Assembly: GCA_964361795.1 (NCBI GenBank)
Contig: CAYIBZ010000002.1
Span: 9,362 to 73,361 of the forward strand
Length of the DNA stretch: 64,000 nucleotides
Origin: an uncultured Candidatus Saccharibacteria bacterium
GTDB taxonomy: Bacteria; Patescibacteriota; Minisyncoccia; UBA6257; WO2-44-18
Reading direction: 5' to 3'
The notes under the pieces were generated by a model that did not search any database, had not been told where the DNA came from, and worked only from the letters and a program-made list of their open reading frames with translations. Below, one piece after another: positions 2,164 to 36,652 of the stretch. The translations under genes and the position numbers were made by a program. Position 1 is the first letter of the stretch; each line of letters starts with the position of its first letter.

Positions 2164-4011
2164 CTATTTAATATTATAAACTTCTACCGCTTCATTGCGA
2201 TAAACTAATTCCAAGTTACTAAGGCCATGTAAAGATATTTGGCTAAAATCCCGCTCCCATGGTCCATAGAAAACGTAATCCGCTTCAACATCTTTAAAAC
2301 TAACAAAAAATTTTTGGTAACGATCGAGTAATTCTCTAATTTTATATTCGGGAATCCGCCGATCGCGGGGGTTTTCCGGAGTGATAAAGTAATTTTGGTA
2401 CAGGTAAGTGCGCGCGTCGGCGAGGTTGCTTATGGCGTATGCCTGATCGCAATTATCGCGGCAAATTAGGCCTGCGCCGTCGCGCAGCCGGGCTCCCAAA
2501 ATTTTTGGATCAACATTAAATAATTTATTGGCGGCCAGGAAGCGCTCTTCCATGTCAAAGTTGGAAATGGAGGTAACTTGTCCCCATGGTAAAAATGGCC
2601 TGGCCGAAGTATATGCCGAGATATAAATGGAAGTCAGTAATGACGGCGATATCACTTTTGGCTCATTTAGGTTTTGGTCCATCCAGCGGTAGGCGGTCAA
2701 AACATCTTCTGGTAAAACATAATTTTTCAAAGTTTCCTGATTCGGCGAAATAAACATCGCCGCATTAATAACCTTTTTAAGGATCAGAAGTGATGATAAA
2801 ACCAGCATAATCGCCAAAATGAATTGGGCTTTTTTCGAATATTTCCAATCCTTGTATCCGCAATATACGATATCCAAAACAATCACGAACAGAATCGGAT
2901 TAATCGCTCTTGGCCAATGATCCGAGTGTGGAACATAACCGATAACTAATTGGATATTCCAAATTATGAAAGCCGCGGCTATAGCGCAAAAATACAGCAC
3001 GGCCCGCAGTCGCCTTTCCGGAACACGCCACATTGTCCAATAGACCAAAACTGCGGCGGTCGCGTAAATGATATAGGCCGGCCACACCTGCCATGTAAAA
3101 TTACGACCAATCTCCAAACCGATGCGATCAATCAGATCTTCGCCTCCAGGTACGGCCTTCAAGGCGAAATAATTTATGAAATAAGGAATGCTAACCACAG
3201 CAGTCGTCGCAACCAATAAACCGGTATTTCTCAAGCGGGGCCAATCAGTCTTTCGGAGCCGAAATAAACAATACAAAAACACCAACACTAGAACCACTGC
3301 CCAATAAACCCAAATATGAAAATAAGTATAAAATAACAACCCGGCTGTGAAGCCGGCCAAAATCGAGTATGCCCATATGGATTTCTGCCAAAATAGAAGA
3401 AAACTCGCAATAGCTGCGAGATACGGAATCGTCGTAAGTAACGGGTGATCGGCTCGAGAGTAAAAAAGCAAAGGTAAAAGCGTCTTGATCCCGGGATAAA
3501 AGTTTTTTAGAACAATGTTGGAAAAATTAGTTAAACCAAGGAAGGCTTCGGTGGTCACCAGCGAAACCGGGGTCAGGATGCCTATTAAACCGAAAAAAAG
3601 TGACCATAATTTAGTCCGTTCAAAAATTATCAGACCGATCCCGTAAAACAGCAAAAATAAAATTGCCGGAATTACAAACAGAGCCGTCAAATAACCGTTA
3701 GTAATATCGCCAAATAGTGATATAAAAAAACCCAAGATCAGCGGCGGCAAAGAAGGATACATGCCTGGACTACTGTAATCAAAAAATAGGTCGGCGGGGG
3801 GGAAGTGGCCATCCGCGACCTCCCGAGCGAATTGGAAATAACCGTCTCCACCGTCATGCAAACGTAAAAACTGATTAAGTACGAATGTCCGACCGGTTGC
3901 CTCAACGGCTTGCTTGATCAATAACTGTGGCGTAACGCTCAAGGAGCCAACCAATATAGTGGCTAGAACCAGAACTGCTATCCAAATATAATTAGCGCGC
4001 TGTTTGGACAT
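2164..4011 (-). CDS. polytopic membrane protein, putative GT-C-like glycosyltransferase (intact paralog of the disrupted gene at 34576..36652)
   Basis: More than ten hydrophobic helices plus a C-terminal soluble domain. Strong collinear similarity to the 34576..36652 gene (YFHIWVYW, IWNIQLVIGYVP, DADYVFYGPWE). The ORF-track start at 4050 is a TTG; the ATG at 4011 aligns with the paralog N-terminus and avoids overlap with the upstream GT2. Confidence 0.4.
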   Translation of the reverse strand: MSKQRANYIWIAVLVLATILVGSLSVTPQLLIKQAVEATGRTFVLNQFLRLHDGGDGYFQFAREVADGHFPPADLFFDYSSPGMYPSLPPLILGFFISLFGDITNGYLTALFVIPAILFLLFYGIGLIIFERTKLWSLFFGLIGILTPVSLVTTEAFLGLTNFSNIVLKNFYPGIKTLLPLLFYSRADHPLLTTIPYLAAIASFLLFWQKSIWAYSILAGFTAGLLFYTYFHIWVYWAVVLVLVFLYCLFRLRKTDWPRLRNTGLLVATTAVVSIPYFINYFALKAVPGGEDLIDRIGLEIGRNFTWQVWPAYIIYATAAVLVYWTMWRVPERRLRAVLYFCAIAAAFIIWNIQLVIGYVPHSDHWPRAINPILFVIVLDIVYCGYKDWKYSKKAQFILAIMLVLSSLLILKKVINAAMFISPNQETLKNYVLPEDVLTAYRWMDQNLNEPKVISPSLLTSIYISAYTSARPFLPWGQVTSISNFDMEERFLAANKLFNVDPKILGARLRDGAGLICRDNCDQAYAISNLADARTYLYQNYFITPENPRDRRIPEYKIRELLDRYQKFFVSFKDVEADYVFYGPWERDFSQISLHGLSNLELVYRNEAVEVYNIK

Positions 4012-4031
4012 AATTAAAATATTCAAAATTC

Positions 4032-4760
4032 TTAGTGGAATTTTTTCCAAACTTTAATCGTATCTTTCAAAAAACCGAAAATAATCGCCGGCCTTATGAA
4101 CGCGAAAATCTTCCCACCTGCCCATATCTGGGCCTCGGCAACGCCCCGAGTTCTGGGATAATGATGAACCCCAATCTCCCCTATCGTGAACCCGTTCCGA
4201 AGCGCGGTAAGGTAAATTTCAACGTTCACAACACCCTGCGTCAGATCAGGCAAAAAATTAACGACGTCAATCACCTTGCGACGATATAATTTGAACGCGC
4301 AATTAATATCTTTAACCTTCAGGCCAAAAAGCAACCGCATCGTCCAATTATAAATTTTAGAGGTCCAGGCCCGCATCAAAGGATCGAATCGTTTTAACTT
4401 ATAACCGGTTACGATGTCGTATTTAGAAATCAGCGGCAACAGAAGATCGAGTTCATTGATATCGAACTGCATGTCGCCATCGGTGTAAAAAATCAATTCT
4501 TTTCTAGAATTTTTGAATCCGTCCCGCAATACTTGCGCGTAGCCAAAATTCTTCGGCTTAGCTATAAGCCGCAATTGCGGAATATCTTTTTGCAGTTCCG
4601 TAGTGATCTCGTTGGTTCGATCAATACTCCCCTCGCTCACAACCAGAATCTCGTAATTCTGAAAACGCGGCTTTAAATAATTATTTATTTTCATAACGGC
4701 TTCACGGACATTTTCTTCTTCGTTATAGCAAGGTATAAAGACCGAGATGCTTTGATTCAT
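4032..4760 (-). CDS. glycosyltransferase family 2 (small DPM1-like)
   Basis: N-terminal VFIPCYNEEENV GT2 signature and a DxD-like YTDGD. 242 aa soluble GT2. Confidence 0.7.
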   Translation of the reverse strand: MNQSISVFIPCYNEEENVREAVMKINNYLKPRFQNYEILVVSEGSIDRTNEITTELQKDIPQLRLIAKPKNFGYAQVLRDGFKNSRKELIFYTDGDMQFDINELDLLLPLISKYDIVTGYKLKRFDPLMRAWTSKIYNWTMRLLFGLKVKDINCAFKLYRRKVIDVVNFLPDLTQGVVNVEIYLTALRNGFTIGEIGVHHYPRTRGVAEAQIWAGGKIFAFIRPAIIFGFLKDTIKVWKKFH

Positions 4761-5698
4761 TATTTCACTATAACCTCTTTTATATTGTAGGGAGGTTTCC
4801 CGGTGGATTCATGGTAGTTCCTTATCAATAATTCCGCTAAAAATCCCATCGCGAATAAGACCAAGCCGGAAATAAAAAACAGCGAAGCTACAAGTGGCAA
4901 TGGCGAGCGCCCGAAATCAAAACCTTCAAAAATTTTCAGATAAGCGGAGTAGCCGCCAGAAAGAATAGCCAGAAACCAACTGAACAGGGCGAGACCGCCG
5001 AAGATCAGAAGTGGCCTAACCGTGGACGTGAGAAACCTGACGGTTAAAAGATCCGATATGTCCTTAACGGCTTTCAAAAAATTATGTTTAGATACGCCTA
5101 ACTTTCTGGCGTGATGATTAACTTCCACTTCGGCGACTTTCGCGCCCTGCAAAAAAAGATATGCCGGTAAAAAAACGTGCATTTCTCCATAAAGATGGAC
5201 GTCTTTTAAAACAGACGCGCGATAGGCCTTCAGAGCGCAGGCATGATCATGAAGATAAAGGCCAGTAACTTTGCGGGTCAGCCAATTAGCCAGACGAGAG
5301 AGGACCTTCCTGTCCGCTGGGTCGTGTCGGTTTTTCCGCCAGCCGGAAACCACGTCATATCCTTCGTTAATTTTCGTGATAAGATTAGGAATATCTTCCG
5401 GGTCATTTTGCAAATCGGCGTCCATGGTGATAACGATGTCACCCTTGGCCAATTTCAACCCCGCGTCCAGCCCGGCGGTCTGACCAATGTTTTTAGCTAT
5501 AACAACTATTTTGATTGGAGAAAGTTTTTTGAGTTTTTCTAGGGTCCGATCAGTCGAACCATTATCAACAGCAATAATCTCGTAGGGCTGGCCAATTTTA
5601 TCTAATACTCTAAGAATAGTTCCATAGAGCACTTCAACGCTTTCTTCTTCGTTATAAGCGGGAAATACTACAGAAATCATTACTGAATAGTAAGCCAA
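4760..5698 (-). CDS. glycosyltransferase family 2, polyprenol-phosphate sugar transferase (GtrB/DPM1-like) with C-terminal TM anchor
   Basis: VVFPAYNEEESV and DADLQNDPEDIP motifs. C-terminal hydrophobic helices (LLIFGGLALFSWFLAIL...). Has a start/stop overlap with the adjacent GT2. Confidence 0.65.
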   Translation of the reverse strand: MAYYSVMISVVFPAYNEEESVEVLYGTILRVLDKIGQPYEIIAVDNGSTDRTLEKLKKLSPIKIVVIAKNIGQTAGLDAGLKLAKGDIVITMDADLQNDPEDIPNLITKINEGYDVVSGWRKNRHDPADRKVLSRLANWLTRKVTGLYLHDHACALKAYRASVLKDVHLYGEMHVFLPAYLFLQGAKVAEVEVNHHARKLGVSKHNFLKAVKDISDLLTVRFLTSTVRPLLIFGGLALFSWFLAILSGGYSAYLKIFEGFDFGRSPLPLVASLFFISGLVLFAMGFLAELLIRNYHESTGKPPYNIKEVIVK

Positions 5699-34575: not shown

Positions 34576-36652
34576 GTGATGAAACTCAAGATTTTTCTTG
34601 TAATTTCGGCAATTTTAATAGGATCGCTCTATATTACACCGCCATTAATTATAAAATACCGCCTTCAAAAAGAAGGGAAGGTTTTTGCGCTTAATTATGA
34701 AATCTATCGAGATGAACTTTTATATCTTTCGCGGGCGCGGGAAATTTATGATGGACATTTTCCTCCAAGCGATCTCCACTTTGATGAACAGCGCCCTACG
34801 GTCCAGAATCCTATTCCATCGCTAATTCTTGCAGGGATGATTGCTCTTGCCAGCGGCAATGTTCAGGTCGGATATTTAATCGCCCAATTTATCTTCACGC
34901 CGATGATTTTCTTAATCTTCTACTGGTTGGGTAAAAACCTTTTTGAATCAACAACGTGGGCAATTTTATTTGCTTATGTTGGCATTCTTACCCCAATTGC
35001 CCTCCGAATCCTTAATTTCCATGGCGCCTAGAAACCATCCCCAAAATACCTCCGCTCGCGATATGAACCAATTTCCGCAAGGCCAAGGAGCGACGACGAA
35101 GGTGTGCTTATTGCACTCCGAGGAGGAGCCGACACCAGCCTTGCGGAAATTGGTCATATCCCTTATTAGTGGGTTGCGGCGATTTGGAGGTATTTTGGGG
35201 ATGGTTTCTATTTCAGAAATTTTCGCCGATTTCGGCAACGATGGCCTGCGAGAATCTTTTCGGGAATTTTTAGGTTATTTTGTTAAACAATTCTTTCCAT
35301 TAGTAAACACTCAAATAGAAAAACTCTATTATGCCCGGCTCGATTATCCGTTAATAGTGTTTCCAATGTATCTTCTCGCCATACTGGGCCTTTTCTTATT
35401 TTGGAAAAAACCCAGGACATCTACGGCAATTTGGGCGGCAATCCCCGCCGGATTGCTATTTTATTTCTATTTTCATTATTGGGTTTATTGGGTTGTTGTG
35501 TTGGGCCTGTTATTTATTTATTCCTTTTTTACTAAAAACAAAAATTCGCAACTTTTTAAATCTTTCTTGATTCTTATTGGCATTATCGCAGTCATAGCGG
35601 CTCCATATTTTATAAATTATCTGAACTTTAGCAAATTTCCCGATATTAATGATGTTACATTTCGATTGGGAGTTGCTACAGGACGGGCGCCGGGCCTCTC
35701 CACCATTGGTTTAGCGTATCTTGCTTACATTGTTATCGCCGTCGGAATATACTTCTTGTATTTCAAAAAAGGCGAACGAAAAACCGCCGTCTTATTTTGG
35801 TCATTCCTAATTGCCATGATAATTATCTGGAATATCCAACTAGTAGTTGGGTATGTCCCTACCCCTAATAATTGGCGTAGAACCATTAGTCCAATTCTTT
35901 ATATTGTTATTTTCCATTTCGTTTATACGCTAGTTCGAAACACAGAAATTAAATTTCCTCCGATTAAAAAAATCGCCGCCATCACGCTTATCCTTTTAAC
36001 TGCTGGCGTAGTTGCTAAAAAAGTGGCTAACGTTTATGTAATCTATCAAAATCCGGAACCGAGAATACTCACTGGCCAAACGTTGGATAAAGATTTTATG
36101 GACGCCTTCGCCTGGATTGATGCCAATCTGTCACCGGAGTCAAAAATAATCAGCAATTCATTTATGACTTCTATTTATCTTAACGTTTATACATCGGCAA
36201 GGCCATTTCTGCCGCTTTGGATGCTTTCGCCTCAATCAACCAAAGAACTAGAAAATCGTTTCTTAATTTCTCATCGTTTATTCGCAACTTCGCCTCAAAC
36301 ACTCGCAAAAATCGTTTCTTCGGATCTTCCCATAGAATGTGTTGGGGTTTGCCCGTCCAATACCGAAGAGAATCTCCGAAAAAATACTTGGCATTTGTAT
36401 GGCCACTATTTCCGTAGCCGCGGCGACATTAATAGTTACCTTAATCATCCATTAGCGATTACCGATGAATACATCATGACTTTAGTTGAAAAATATAAAA
36501 AAACTAAAGTGAATTTTTCTTCTGTTGATGCCGATTACCTATTTTTTGGTCCTTGGGAAAAGCAATTTAGCGAAATTGATTTCGATCAAAACAAAGATCT
36601 AGAATTAGTTTATCAAAATCCTAACGTGAAGCTGTTCCGAATAAAACGTTAA
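34576..36652 (+). pseudogene. GT-C-like polytopic membrane protein, paralog of 2164..4011, split into two reading frames by a 178-182 nt inverted-repeat element
   Basis: ORF 34576..35031 (frame 1) and ORF 34943..36652 (frame 2) are together collinear with the 628-aa paralog. The break coincides with the IR-bounded insertion at 35029..35210. It could also be a sequencing frameshift or a functional split gene. Confidence 0.5.
35029..35210. mobile_element. MITE-like small element: 25-bp perfect terminal inverted repeats (TAGAAACCATCCCCAAAATACCTCC), nested 16-bp internal inverted repeat, locally GC-rich
   Basis: 35029-35053 is the exact reverse complement of 35186-35210. The inner IR 35068-35083 pairs with 35138-35153. 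The element sits exactly where the host gene changes frame. Removing the 178 nt at 35031-35208 rejoins the two ORFs in frame. Confidence 0.5.

What the first reader, a model, noticed from the sequence alone, without database searches (positions are those of the whole stretch)
35029..35210. 178-182 nt inverted-repeat element splitting a GT-C-like membrane protein gene
The 25-nt sequence at 35029-35053 (TAGAAACCATCCCCAAAATACCTCC) is the exact reverse complement of 35186-35210. Inside, 35068-35083 (CCAATTTCCGCAAGGC) pairs perfectly with 35138-35153. The segment is markedly GC-richer than its surroundings. It lies exactly where the paralog of gene 2164..4011 switches reading frame. Upstream reads frame 1 and ends at TAG 35029-35031. 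Downstream reads frame 2. Deleting 178 nt (35031-35208) fuses the two ORFs in frame (...NFHGA-Y-ISEIFADFG...). The TA dinucleotides flanking the 23-bp core IR resemble TA target-site duplications of IS630/Tc1-type MITEs. The nested-stem architecture also resembles RNA-guided or structured non-autonomous elements. Alternatives are a recent pseudogenizing insertion or an element removed at the RNA level.
Basis: seen in the sequence. Interest (0 to 1): 0.7.

Follow-up and report, generated by a model that had tools for sequence, protein, structure and literature searches.

The report
Mobile hairpin element at split-gene junction
The 182-nt inverted repeat is a shortened copy of a small non-coding "jumping" DNA element (a MITE) found in many groundwater Patescibacteria; it did not split the membrane-protein gene, because that gene is already encoded as two overlapping pieces in relatives that lack the element.

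Summary
There is a perfect 25-nt terminal inverted repeat and a nested 17-nt repeat. Either strand folds at about -104 kcal/mol. The segment is GC-rich and sits exactly where frame 1 gives way to frame 2.

In four orthologous loci without any element, the GT-C-fold gene is already two ORFs (150 aa and about 484 aa) overlapping by 11 nt (ATGnnGCnTAR). The window keeps this overlap (ATGGCGCCTAG, 35021-35031). So the split is ancestral, and "delete 178 nt to fuse the ORFs" is an arithmetic artefact.

The element belongs to a dispersed family of about 275 nt: 24 loci in several aquifer metagenomes, plus at least 15 further protein clusters. Copies read TA-GAACCCATC...GATGGGTTC-TA. An empty orthologous site shows a 2-bp duplication at TA, the pattern known for IS630/Tc1-type elements. 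No transposase partner was found. The multi-arm hairpin covaries (36 of 108 pairs) with no strand bias and no coding signal.

The window copy lacks one arm and is fixed in its population. It regenerates the upstream stop (TA+G). It is stop-free in the downstream frame and carries an in-frame GGAGG-N10-ATG. It is a new member of a known kind, of moderate interest.

The parts
35029..35030 (.). Left flanking TA (target-site copy). Together with the element's first base G it forms the TAG stop of the N-terminal ORF.
   Evidence: Searches show TA on both sides of most family copies. Searches show the 2-bp duplication at an empty orthologous site of another copy.
35031..35208 (+). Element proper (G...C, 178 nt). 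It is an internally deleted member of a MITE family of about 271 nt.
   Evidence: It is 82-88% identical to most full-length copies over its 178 shared positions, and 71-79% to the four most diverged ones. The family profile HMM hits it at E=1.7e-45, and it is the only copy in the window.
35209..35210 (.). Right flanking TA (second target-site copy).
35029..35053 (+). Left terminal inverted-repeat arm (helix P1, 5' side).
   Evidence: 25/25 complementary to 35186-35210. It differs from the family consensus at 3 positions, each matched by a compensating change in the right arm.
35186..35210 (+). Right terminal inverted-repeat arm (helix P1, 3' side).
35186..35190 (+). Outward-facing GGAGG (Shine-Dalgarno-like) inside the right arm.
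   Evidence: It lies 10 nt upstream of ATG 35201.
35201..35203 (+). Outward-facing ATG in the right arm, in frame with the C-terminal ORF (MVS-ISEIF...). Gene callers used it as the start (P0001, 483 aa).
35060..35160 (+). Arm A: long internal hairpin. It comprises the perfect 17-bp stem 35067-83/35138-54, a conserved internal-loop region, and the apical hairpin GTGC-TTATT-GCAC at 35104-35116.
   Evidence: Covariation in helices 2 and 3 is shown.
35160..35173 (+). Mini-hairpin CCC...GGG, with a 4-nt loop insertion relative to the family.
35185..35186 (+). Deletion scar. About 97 nt present in canonical copies (arm B and the 3' half of the GC clamp) are missing between these two bases.
34579..35031 (+). 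N-terminal ORF of the split GT-C-fold protein (150 aa; an in-frame GTG lies at 34576). It ends ...LNFHGA* on the TAG formed by TA+G.
35021..35031 (+). Ancestral 11-nt overlap ATGGCGCCTAG: the native start of the C-terminal ORF overlapping the stop of the N-terminal ORF.
   Evidence: The same ATGnnGCnTAR is present in L007, L009, L011 and L013. The His/Asn/Asp codons (xAT) before Gly always preserve the ATG.
35021..36652 (+). C-terminal ORF read from its native ATG: MAP, then 60 element-encoded codons with no stop, then ISEIFADF... (543 codons in all).
2164..4050 (-). Unsplit paralog of the host gene, used for the fold assignment.

Best explanation
The segment is a fixed, internally deleted copy of a non-autonomous DNA transposon (MITE) family that circulates in groundwater Patescibacteria (CPR). 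Canonical copies are about 271 nt. They have 23-25-bp terminal inverted repeats, integrate at a TA and duplicate it, as IS630/Tc1-mariner-type elements do. They are presumably moved in trans by a transposase that has not been identified. The element landed in the 11-nt overlap that joins the two naturally separate ORFs of a GT-C-fold glycosyltransferase-like membrane protein. The insertion is probably tolerated for three reasons. First, the TA plus the element's first base G re-creates the upstream ORF's TAG at its ancestral position. Second, the insert is a multiple of three and stop-free in the downstream ORF's frame, so translation from the native ATG can read through it. Third, the right arm carries GGAGG-N10-ATG in that same frame, giving an alternative start that yields an almost native N-terminus (MVS-ISEIF against ancestral MxPS-xSEIF). 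Shown here: family membership, the TA duplication at another copy, the ancestral split, intact frames, and fixation. Inferred: which start is used, and that the protein still works.
For: Ancestral split: four element-free orthologous loci have a 150-153-aa ORF and a 483-487-aa ORF overlapping by 11 nt, and their junction DNA is colinear with the window once 35032-35208 is removed. At least 18 orthologous C-fragments start at the same residue. Family: a six-frame peptide search found a second copy inside an unrelated AAT-family gene. The metagenome scan gave 24 loci from the Hainich, Rifle and other sites, with consensus TA-GAACCCATCTCAAAAATACCTCC...GGAGGTATTTTTGAGATGGGTTC-TA. At least 15 further protein clusters contain only element-derived peptide. 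TA duplication: the empty ortholog L091 reads AATTTAAC-CA-ATCAAACA, against filled AATTTAAC-TA-[271 nt]-TA-ATCAAACA. All five copies inside ORFs have (length-2) divisible by 3. The Pfam AAT match becomes continuous after in-silico excision. No coding capacity or coding selection: no codon periodicity, p=0.24. Structure is maintained: 92% of cells are paired, and 36 of 108 pairs carry changes on both sides against 14.9 +/- 2.6 in shuffles (0 of 500) and 2-12 in slid controls. Tolerance logic recurs in other copies. A flanking gene stops on the terminal TAG in L081, L067 and L070. An arm ATG begins or is in frame with the host ORF in L072, L075 and L066. Fixation: the six places shown from the 9 contigs (two wells, several replicates, one independent study) all carry the element, and neither ORF has a further lesion.
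Against: No autonomous partner or transposase with matching ends was found in any fetched locus, in the genome collection (chance hits only) or in viral contigs. Relative to orthologs the net insertion in the window is 177 nt, not the 180 nt predicted by element plus TA. A further 3-nt loss is therefore needed, or a lineage-specific codon difference; the nearest orthologs are only 61% identical or less. Copy density is low in the DNA seen: one copy in 64 kb and one per locus. Internal arms that covary go beyond what a transposase substrate strictly needs. The arm ATG is not universal: 26 of 36 arm ends keep it at the canonical position, and a diverged subfamily has ATA there. In the folded mRNA, the GGAGG and ATG of the arm are buried in a 25-bp helix.
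Confidence: 0.8

Rival explanations
1. One reading: the element inserted into an intact single gene and split or pseudogenized it. Precise loss of 178 nt would restore one ORF.
For: Deleting 35031-35208 joins frame 1 to frame 2 without a stop. The in-window paralog and more distant homologs are single ORFs of 600-630 aa.
Against: Four element-free orthologs have exactly the same two-ORF, 11-nt-overlap, +1-offset junction. The ATG of the second ORF is preserved through His/Asn/Asp codon changes. A 178-nt excision is also not what a TA-duplicating element leaves behind; that would be 180 nt, as searches show.
Confidence: 0.04
2. The family is primarily a functional structured RNA, for example an RNase III processing site, an mRNA stabiliser or insulator, or a translational coupling device. 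On this reading it spreads by transposition but is retained for that function. In the window it has been domesticated as the intercistronic element of the split gene.
For: There is strong covariation in all helices, including internal arms that a transposase need not recognise. Copies recur at gene boundaries, with terminal TAG stops and outward GGAGG-ATG starts in use. The insertion is fixed in the population. Correia elements set a precedent: their hairpins are RNase III targets that affect neighbouring mRNAs (PMC2229807).
Against: G-U-type mismatches are equally common on both strands, 65 against 56 cells. Copies occur in both orientations relative to host genes. There is no Rfam family. 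No promoter or terminator signal was found. The window copy has lost a whole arm and half of the GC clamp. Orthologs work without any such element.
Confidence: 0.12
3. The element is removed at the RNA level (intron-like), or is skipped by the ribosome through translational bypassing from GCC-TAG to a downstream GCC.
For: A very stable hairpin starts at a stop codon directly after a GCC codon, and an in-frame GCC lies at 35225-35227. This loosely resembles the T4 gene 60 take-off site; that comparison rests on my own knowledge and was not tested.
Against: All five copies inside ORFs keep the host frame stop-free and have lengths divisible by three, whereas diverged intergenic copies have lost their open frames. 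That pattern is expected only if the element is translated. No ribozyme or intron family matches. Orthologs need no bypass, because the two ORFs are separate genes. The gap would be 196 nt, far beyond the approximately 50-nt gap I recall for gene 60 (own knowledge, not tested).
Confidence: 0.03
4. Assembly or sequencing artefact, such as a chimeric join or a palindromic mis-assembly.
For: Long palindromes can be created by assembly errors.
Against: The identical sequence is present in ENA and Logan assemblies of different runs, wells and studies. Homologous elements with the same architecture occur at about 20 other sites.
Confidence: 0.01

Closest known systems
Correia elements / NEMIS (Neisseria MITEs)
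   Same: Both are non-coding with terminal inverted repeats of about 25 bp. Both insert at TA and duplicate it. Both fold into a long stem-loop when transcribed, are often co-transcribed with neighbouring genes, and lack an identified dedicated transposase. The shorter Correia variant has open frames found fused to host ORFs (PMC2229807, Table 1 and text).
   Different: There is no detectable sequence relationship. The host phylum differs (Patescibacteria, not Neisseria). The canonical length is about 271 nt against 100-155 nt. This family has two internal hairpin arms and a mini-hairpin rather than one rod. IHF sites and promoters were not found or not testable. Copy density appears low.
RUP (pneumococcal repeat thought to be mobilised by IS630-Spn1)
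   Same: TA at the termini, a target-site duplication, small size, and presumed trans-mobilisation by an IS630-family transposase (PMC2229807; PMC3049150).
   Different: RUP is 107 bp, has short TIRs, has no open frame, and has a named candidate partner IS. Here no partner is known, the TIRs are 23-25 bp, and stop-free frames exist.
Rickettsia palindromic elements (RPE)
   Same: Palindromic repeats inserted in frame into conserved protein-coding genes and translated as extra peptide segments (PMC10969869; PMC2229807). Here copies lie in frame in an AAT-family enzyme, a cytochrome-b-like protein, a 1528-aa ORF, and the window's C-terminal ORF.
   Different: For RPEs a target-site duplication is uncertain and TA ends are inconsistent. 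Most copies of the present family lie at gene boundaries rather than mid-gene. It shows no coding-type conservation. Its TA duplication is shown directly.
BOX elements of Streptococcus pneumoniae
   Same: The repeat supplies the stop codon of the upstream gene; 36 such cases are reported in PMC3049150. Such repeats can also create 5' and 3' adducts to operons.
   Different: BOX is modular (boxA/B/C), not a TA-duplicating 25-bp-TIR element. Its putative start codons lacked good Shine-Dalgarno sequences (PMC3049150), whereas this family's arms carry GGAGG-N10-ATG.
Neisseria REP2 / Borrelia IR repeats
   Same: [quoted passage not shown]
   Different: They have no terminal inverted repeats or target duplication and are not MITEs. 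Here the RBS and ATG are part of the TIR itself, and so face outward at both ends.

Membership tests
Bacterial MITE (generic) | Small (under about 500 bp) and without coding capacity of its own | tested here: met
   The window copy is 178 nt and the canonical copy about 271 nt. There is no codon periodicity in family variability (p=0.24), and open frames are lost in diverged copies.
Bacterial MITE (generic) | Terminal inverted repeats | tested here: met
   25/25 in the window. The termini are conserved in 20 or more copies.
Bacterial MITE (generic) | Multiple dispersed copies at unrelated genomic sites | tested here: met
   24 loci representing about 20 distinct sites with unrelated flanks and host genes. 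At least 15 further protein clusters contain element peptide. The window holds only 1 copy.
Bacterial MITE (generic) | Target-site duplication shown by comparing filled and empty sites | tested here: met
   Empty L091 against filled L061: one CA/TA dinucleotide against TA...TA, a net 273 nt. For the window's own site no empty allele exists, and orthologs suggest +177 nt, not +180 nt.
Bacterial MITE (generic) | A related autonomous IS with matching ends | tested here: inconclusive
   No second TIR pair at IS-like spacing and no transposase next to any copy. The genome-collection scan gave only 3 chance hits. Only about 200 kb of flanking DNA was inspected.
IS630/Tc1-mariner-mobilised MITE | Integration at TA with a 2-bp TA duplication | tested here: met
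   TA lies on both sides of most copies. The empty-site comparison confirms it. The frame arithmetic holds in 5 of 5 copies inside ORFs.
IS630/Tc1-mariner-mobilised MITE | TIR sequence similarity to an IS630-family element, and an IS630-type DDE transposase in the same genomes | not testable with these tools
   No IS reference library or whole-genome bins were available. None was seen in the fetched loci.
RPE-like translated palindromic element | In-frame, stop-free insertion into conserved protein-coding genes | tested here: met
   The window C-ORF, the L061 AAT gene (Pfam domain interrupted and then restored), L066, L068 and L076 (P0066, cytochrome-b-like).
RPE-like translated palindromic element | Element peptide conserved as a protein module | tested here: not met
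   There is no third-position excess. Conservation follows base-pairing instead.
Any curated RNA family (Rfam 15), including ribozymes and group I/II introns | Covariance-model match | tested here: not met
   No hit at gathering thresholds in the window. Nothing relevant at E<=1 on four full-length copies.
GT-C glycosyltransferase fold (host gene) | Multi-TM N-terminal module plus periplasmic domain, structurally similar to STT3/PglB/ArnT/AftA | tested here: met
   AF2 model of the unsplit paralog: pLDDT 86.7, pTM 0.88. Foldseek top 27 hits are all GT-C enzymes, E down to 1e-7, TM about 0.45. There is no Pfam or PDB sequence match. Catalytic activity was not tested.

The most novel reading that the evidence does not exclude
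The family's termini may be a selected, symmetric 'translation adapter'. Reading inward, TA+G gives a TAG stop. Reading outward, each arm gives GGAGG-N10-ATG-GGT-TC-TA. One frame per orientation is stop-free. A covarying multi-arm hairpin would then act at the RNA level. Together these would let a transposon live inside operons, gene overlaps and even ORFs of ultra-compact CPR genomes without polar damage. In the window it would now be the working intercistronic start module for the C-terminal half of a split GT-C enzyme.
Probability: 0.2. Interest if true: 0.6.

Novelty: new member of a known kind. Interest (0 to 1): 0.38.

Why it matters
This corrects an attractive but wrong reading, namely that a mobile element split the gene. 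It also shows that a single odd palindrome is the visible tip of a MITE family shared by Patescibacteria from aquifers on two continents. I found no paper in the searchable literature that describes MITEs in this radiation. In genomes with almost no intergenic space, where such an element can survive is informative. Copies sit on stop codons, on start codons, in gene overlaps, or in frame inside ORFs, and their ends happen to supply, or were selected to supply, stop and start signals. For annotation, element-derived peptides are present in many predicted "proteins", and gene starts are called inside the repeat. The conserved fission of a GT-C-fold enzyme into two translationally coupled ORFs is a separate point of interest for cell-envelope biology in CPR bacteria.

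Tried and rejected
1. The genome-collection scan with the window's 19-nt arm gave 3 single-arm hits, about the chance expectation, and no family.
2. Four viral-contig scans (window arm, peptide patterns, consensus arm, conserved core) found only chance hits or nothing.
3. Rfam found nothing, either at gathering thresholds on the window or relaxed on four full copies.
4. Exact-protein lookup of the N-terminal ORF, to find an empty allele of the window's own site, failed. All six places shown from the 9 contigs are filled.
5. A composite query of host-protein segments, meant to find empty alleles at seven other sites, returned only one filled allele (P0066) and unrelated Mur ligases.
6. Strand-specific wobble pairing, as a test of RNA-level selection, showed no asymmetry.
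7. Codon periodicity, as a test of a translated-module hypothesis, showed none.
8. Promoter and terminator scans gave nothing convincing.
9. I first counted L069 as a case where the arm start is in frame with the host gene. Recomputation showed it is not, and its arm ATG is mutated to ATA, so that case was withdrawn.
10. I first read the extra 95 nt or so in L058 as a nested insertion. The family alignment showed it is the norm and that the window copy is the deleted form.
Full report
OBSERVATION. The sequence is as described. Arms 35029-35053 and 35186-35210 are 25 nt long and perfectly complementary. The nested arms 35067-35083 and 35138-35154 are 17 nt long and also perfect. The arm occurs nowhere else in the window and is not expected by chance. 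Either strand folds into a near-continuous hairpin of about -104 kcal/mol, z about -13. GC rises to 0.50-0.55 against about 0.40 in the flanks. An ORF in frame 1 ends on TAG 35029-35031, and a long frame-2 ORF continues to 36652. The two halves align to the two halves of a single-ORF paralog at 2164..4050 on the minus strand. The same sequence is present in several independent assemblies, so it is not an artefact. The window comes from Hainich aquifer groundwater metagenomes, 0.1-um fraction, which is typical for Patescibacteria (CPR).

THE GENE WAS ALREADY SPLIT. Arithmetic gave the first warning. A TA-duplicating element adds its own length plus 2, here 180 nt. That is a multiple of three and cannot cause a frame switch; only a 178-nt or 181-nt deletion fuses the frames. 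A homology search with the "repaired" protein then showed that the closest relatives (50-61% identity, many different Patescibacteria) are proteins of 483-490 aa covering only the C-terminal 76%. Only more distant homologs (33-42% identity) are full length at roughly 590-630 aa, with a few longer fusions. All the short orthologs begin at the same position, M-x-x-x-x-x-x-IFTDF. Four orthologous loci were fetched (L007, L009, L011, L013). Each has a 150-153-aa ORF and a 483-487-aa ORF overlapping by exactly 11 nt, with a +1 offset and no intervening element. At nucleotide level the junction is ATGnnGCnTAR in all of them, and the window has ATGGCGCCTAG at 35021-35031. The residue before the conserved Gly varies among His, Asn and Asp. 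All three are xAT codons, so the ATG of the second ORF is always preserved, which marks it as a real start codon. The fission is therefore ancestral to this clade. Removing 35032-35208 (177 nt) makes the window colinear with the orthologs: CCTAG|TATTTCAGAAATTTTC in the window against CCTAGTTTTTCAGAAATTTTC in L013, and MAPSISEIFADF against MVPSFSEIFTDF.

IT IS ONE MEMBER OF A DISPERSED FAMILY. The window's arm found nothing beyond chance in the genome or viral collections. Searching the element's six-frame peptides against the large protein database found P0065, an AAT-family protein from Rifle aquifer metagenomes. It contains NTSARDMSQFPQDQGATTKVCLLHS. Its DNA (L058/L061 2223-2497) is a second copy, about 87% identical to the window copy, with ends TA-GAACCCATC...GATGGGTTC-TA. 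A metagenome scan seeded from both copies returned 24 loci from the Hainich, Rifle and other sites. Almost all copies are about 275 nt including the flanking TAs, with well-conserved termini. The window copy is therefore the unusual one. It has lost about 97 nt (the second internal arm and half of a GC clamp) and gained 4 nt in a small loop. It is 82-88% identical to most full-length copies and 71-79% to the four most diverged ones. A family profile HMM finds one copy in the 64-kb window and one per fetched locus. An exhaustive representative search with P0065 later showed at least 15 more protein clusters that match only the element-encoded stretch. Element GC (0.48-0.57) is independent of host-locus GC (0.36-0.54). 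One host is annotated in NCBI as Candidatus Liptonbacteria.

HOW IT INSERTS. TA flanks both ends of most copies, and C precedes the left TA in 12 of 18. The decisive comparison is P0075, an insert-free ortholog 80% identical to P0065. It reads ...KIAQENLT-NQTS..., where P0065 reads ...KIAQENLT[91 aa]NQTS.... Its DNA (L091) reads AATTTAAC-CA-ATCAAACATCG, against AATTTAAC-TA-[271 nt]-TA-ATCAAACATCG in the filled locus. That is a 2-bp duplication at a TA, with a synonymous T/C difference between the lineages. After in-silico excision the Pfam AAT match becomes one continuous stretch and scores higher. All five copies that lie inside long host ORFs have (length-2) divisible by three. From established knowledge, this target behaviour is typical of IS630/Tc1-mariner-type transposition and of the bacterial MITEs Correia, RUP and ERIC (PMC2229807, Table 1). 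No transposase or longer element with these ends was seen, so the partner is unknown. At the window's own site the net gain is 177 nt, not 180 nt. This needs one more small event or a lineage-specific codon difference. One possibility is collapse of a TAGTAG created by insertion into the second TA of CCTAGTATTTC. Another is TAGTA collapsing to TA on the right side, if the stop-codon TA was the target. The nearest orthologs are only 61% identical, and no empty allele exists: all six places shown from the 9 contigs (two wells and an independent study) are filled.

STRUCTURE. A canonical copy folds at -163 kcal/mol on either strand, z about -14. It forms a 25-bp terminal helix, a GC clamp, a long arm A, a CCC/GGG mini-hairpin and a long arm B. 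On a 19-copy alignment, 92% of cells are paired. 36 of 108 pairs carry changes on both sides, against 14.9 +/- 2.6 in column shuffles (0 of 500) and 2-12 when partners are slid. The window's three departures from the consensus arm are each compensated in the other arm. Wobble-type mismatches are equally frequent on the two strands, 65 against 56 cells, and copies occur in both orientations relative to host genes. Nothing therefore points to a strand-specific RNA. No Rfam family matches, and no promoter or terminator signal stands out. Variability shows no codon periodicity (p=0.24), so the element is not a protein module. The pairing is clearly maintained, but whether at the DNA level (transposase substrate or hairpin intermediate) or at the RNA level remains open.

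WHERE COPIES SURVIVE, AND WHAT THE ENDS DO. Copies cluster at gene boundaries. Reading inward, TA plus the first base G gives TAG. This is the stop codon of the flanking gene in the window (N-terminal ORF), in L081 (a TyrRS-like gene from the window's own sample), in L067 (a Mur-ligase-like gene) and in L070. Reading outward, each arm is GGAGG-N10-ATG-GGT-TC-TA.
- In L072 a thioredoxin-like gene begins at this ATG (MGS-NKTVIFIIAAIL). Its native start (ATGAC|TA|AC..., MTNKTV) is stranded across the element, in a frame that is closed.
- In L075 and L066 the arm ATG is in frame with the native start just downstream.
- In the window it gives MVS-ISEIF..., which is what gene callers annotated (P0001).
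In an unbiased tabulation, the four host genes whose 5' end abuts an intact arm ATG are all in its frame. One further case (L069) has a mutated arm ATG and is out of frame. With so few cases this is only suggestive, about p=0.01-0.05. One frame per orientation is stop-free in most copies. All five copies inside ORFs keep the required frame open, while diverged intergenic copies have lost their open frames. That argues the element stays in the mRNA and is translated, not spliced out. The canonical arm ATG is intact at 26 of 36 ends, so these features may be fortuitous properties that selection filters at each insertion, rather than an adaptation of the element.

MOST LIKELY MECHANISM IN THE WINDOW. 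Three things are shown: the ancestral overlap and the N-terminal ORF's stop are intact, the C-terminal ORF is open from its native ATG through 60 element codons into an otherwise undamaged 483-codon body, and the insertion is fixed. The rest is inferred. The C-fragment is probably still made by one of two routes. The first is termination-reinitiation at the native ATG, 8 nt upstream of the TAG as in the orthologs, followed by read-through that adds about 60 residues. The second is initiation at the arm's GGAGG/ATG once ribosomes finishing the upstream ORF have opened helix P1, which otherwise buries both signals. I cannot tell which route is used.

HOST GENE. Neither Pfam nor PDB sequence search recognises the family. 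An AlphaFold model of the unsplit paralog (pLDDT 86.7, pTM 0.88) matches STT3, PglB, AftA, ArnT, ALG3/12, AftD and Emb (Foldseek E down to 1e-7). "GT-C-like" is therefore supported at the level of fold.

COMPARISON AND NOVELTY. Every individual property has a precedent.
- TA-duplicating MITEs with TIRs of about 25 bp and long stem-loops: Correia, RUP, ERIC (PMC2229807).
- In-frame translated insertions: RPE (PMC10969869).
- Repeat-encoded stop codons: BOX, 36 genes (PMC3049150).
- Repeats carrying an RBS plus ATG: REP2, which is not a TIR element (PMC3184786).
I found no paper describing MITEs in CPR/Patescibacteria. I therefore class this as a new member of a known kind. It has two mildly unusual traits, a covarying multi-arm architecture and TIRs that encode outward start signals, whose functional meaning is unproven. 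Interest is moderate. The main value is the corrected interpretation, the family itself, and the conserved split of a GT-C-fold gene.

Noticed in passing
window 34576-36652; orthologs L007 9550-11452, L009 9550-11455, L011 9559-11464, L013 1509-3405: A GT-C-fold membrane protein is encoded as two ORFs (about 150 aa and about 484 aa) overlapping by 11 nt (ATGnnGCnTAR) throughout a clade of Patescibacteria. The in-window paralog (2164..4050, minus strand) and more distant homologs are single ORFs. His/Asn/Asp (xAT) codons preserve the internal ATG. This is a conserved, probably translationally coupled gene fission after the N-terminal TM module that carries the E-I-Y-D-G-H-F-P-P motif.
   Followed up: partly
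L073 3497-3720: A half copy of the element is flanked by a 38-nt direct repeat of host DNA. The first repeat abuts the element (...AACTTGC-CA-GAACCC). The second reads like an empty site (...AACTTGC-TA-ATTCTGC). This is either a local rearrangement or a strain-mixture assembly of filled and empty alleles.
   Followed up: no
L068 about 5190-5235 and L075 about 1830-1850 (columns 218-259 and 279-298 of alignment A3): Secondary short insertions lie inside arm B of two family copies. L068 has +42 nt. L075 has +20 nt, itself a perfect palindrome (CCTGCCTGCCGGCAGGCAGG). L068's length still keeps the host frame.
   Followed up: no
L082/L084 versus L083 (element at 3948-4222, 5000-5274 and 195-469): The left flank is the same but the right flank differs in otherwise near-identical copies. 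This suggests recombination or rearrangement at the element between related strains.
   Followed up: no
L063 1089-1363 and L081 3804-4077 (sample ERZ1292623, coverage 11 and 13): Two full-length family copies come from the same sample as the window, at similar coverage (the window's contig has coverage 12). They are possibly from the same genome. They are only about 87% identical to the window copy, so the window copy would belong to a different subfamily.
   Followed up: no
window 1-64000: Nearly the whole window is a one-strand polysaccharide or cell-envelope gene cluster. It holds many GT4 glycosyltransferases, SAM methyltransferases, a YfhO-type GT-C protein, CDP-glycerol glycerophosphotransferase-like genes and a fatty-acid desaturase-like gene. 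There are no tRNA genes and no Rfam hits.
   Followed up: partly
proteins P0088, P0100, P0102, P0113, P0118, P0119, P0181 and others (sequences): Many database 'proteins' are partly or wholly translations of this repeat, for example the L068 shadow ORF P0100. P0119 and P0181 fuse the arm-encoded ...EMGS to a host N-terminus. This is a source of spurious or extended gene calls in CPR metagenomes.
   Followed up: partly
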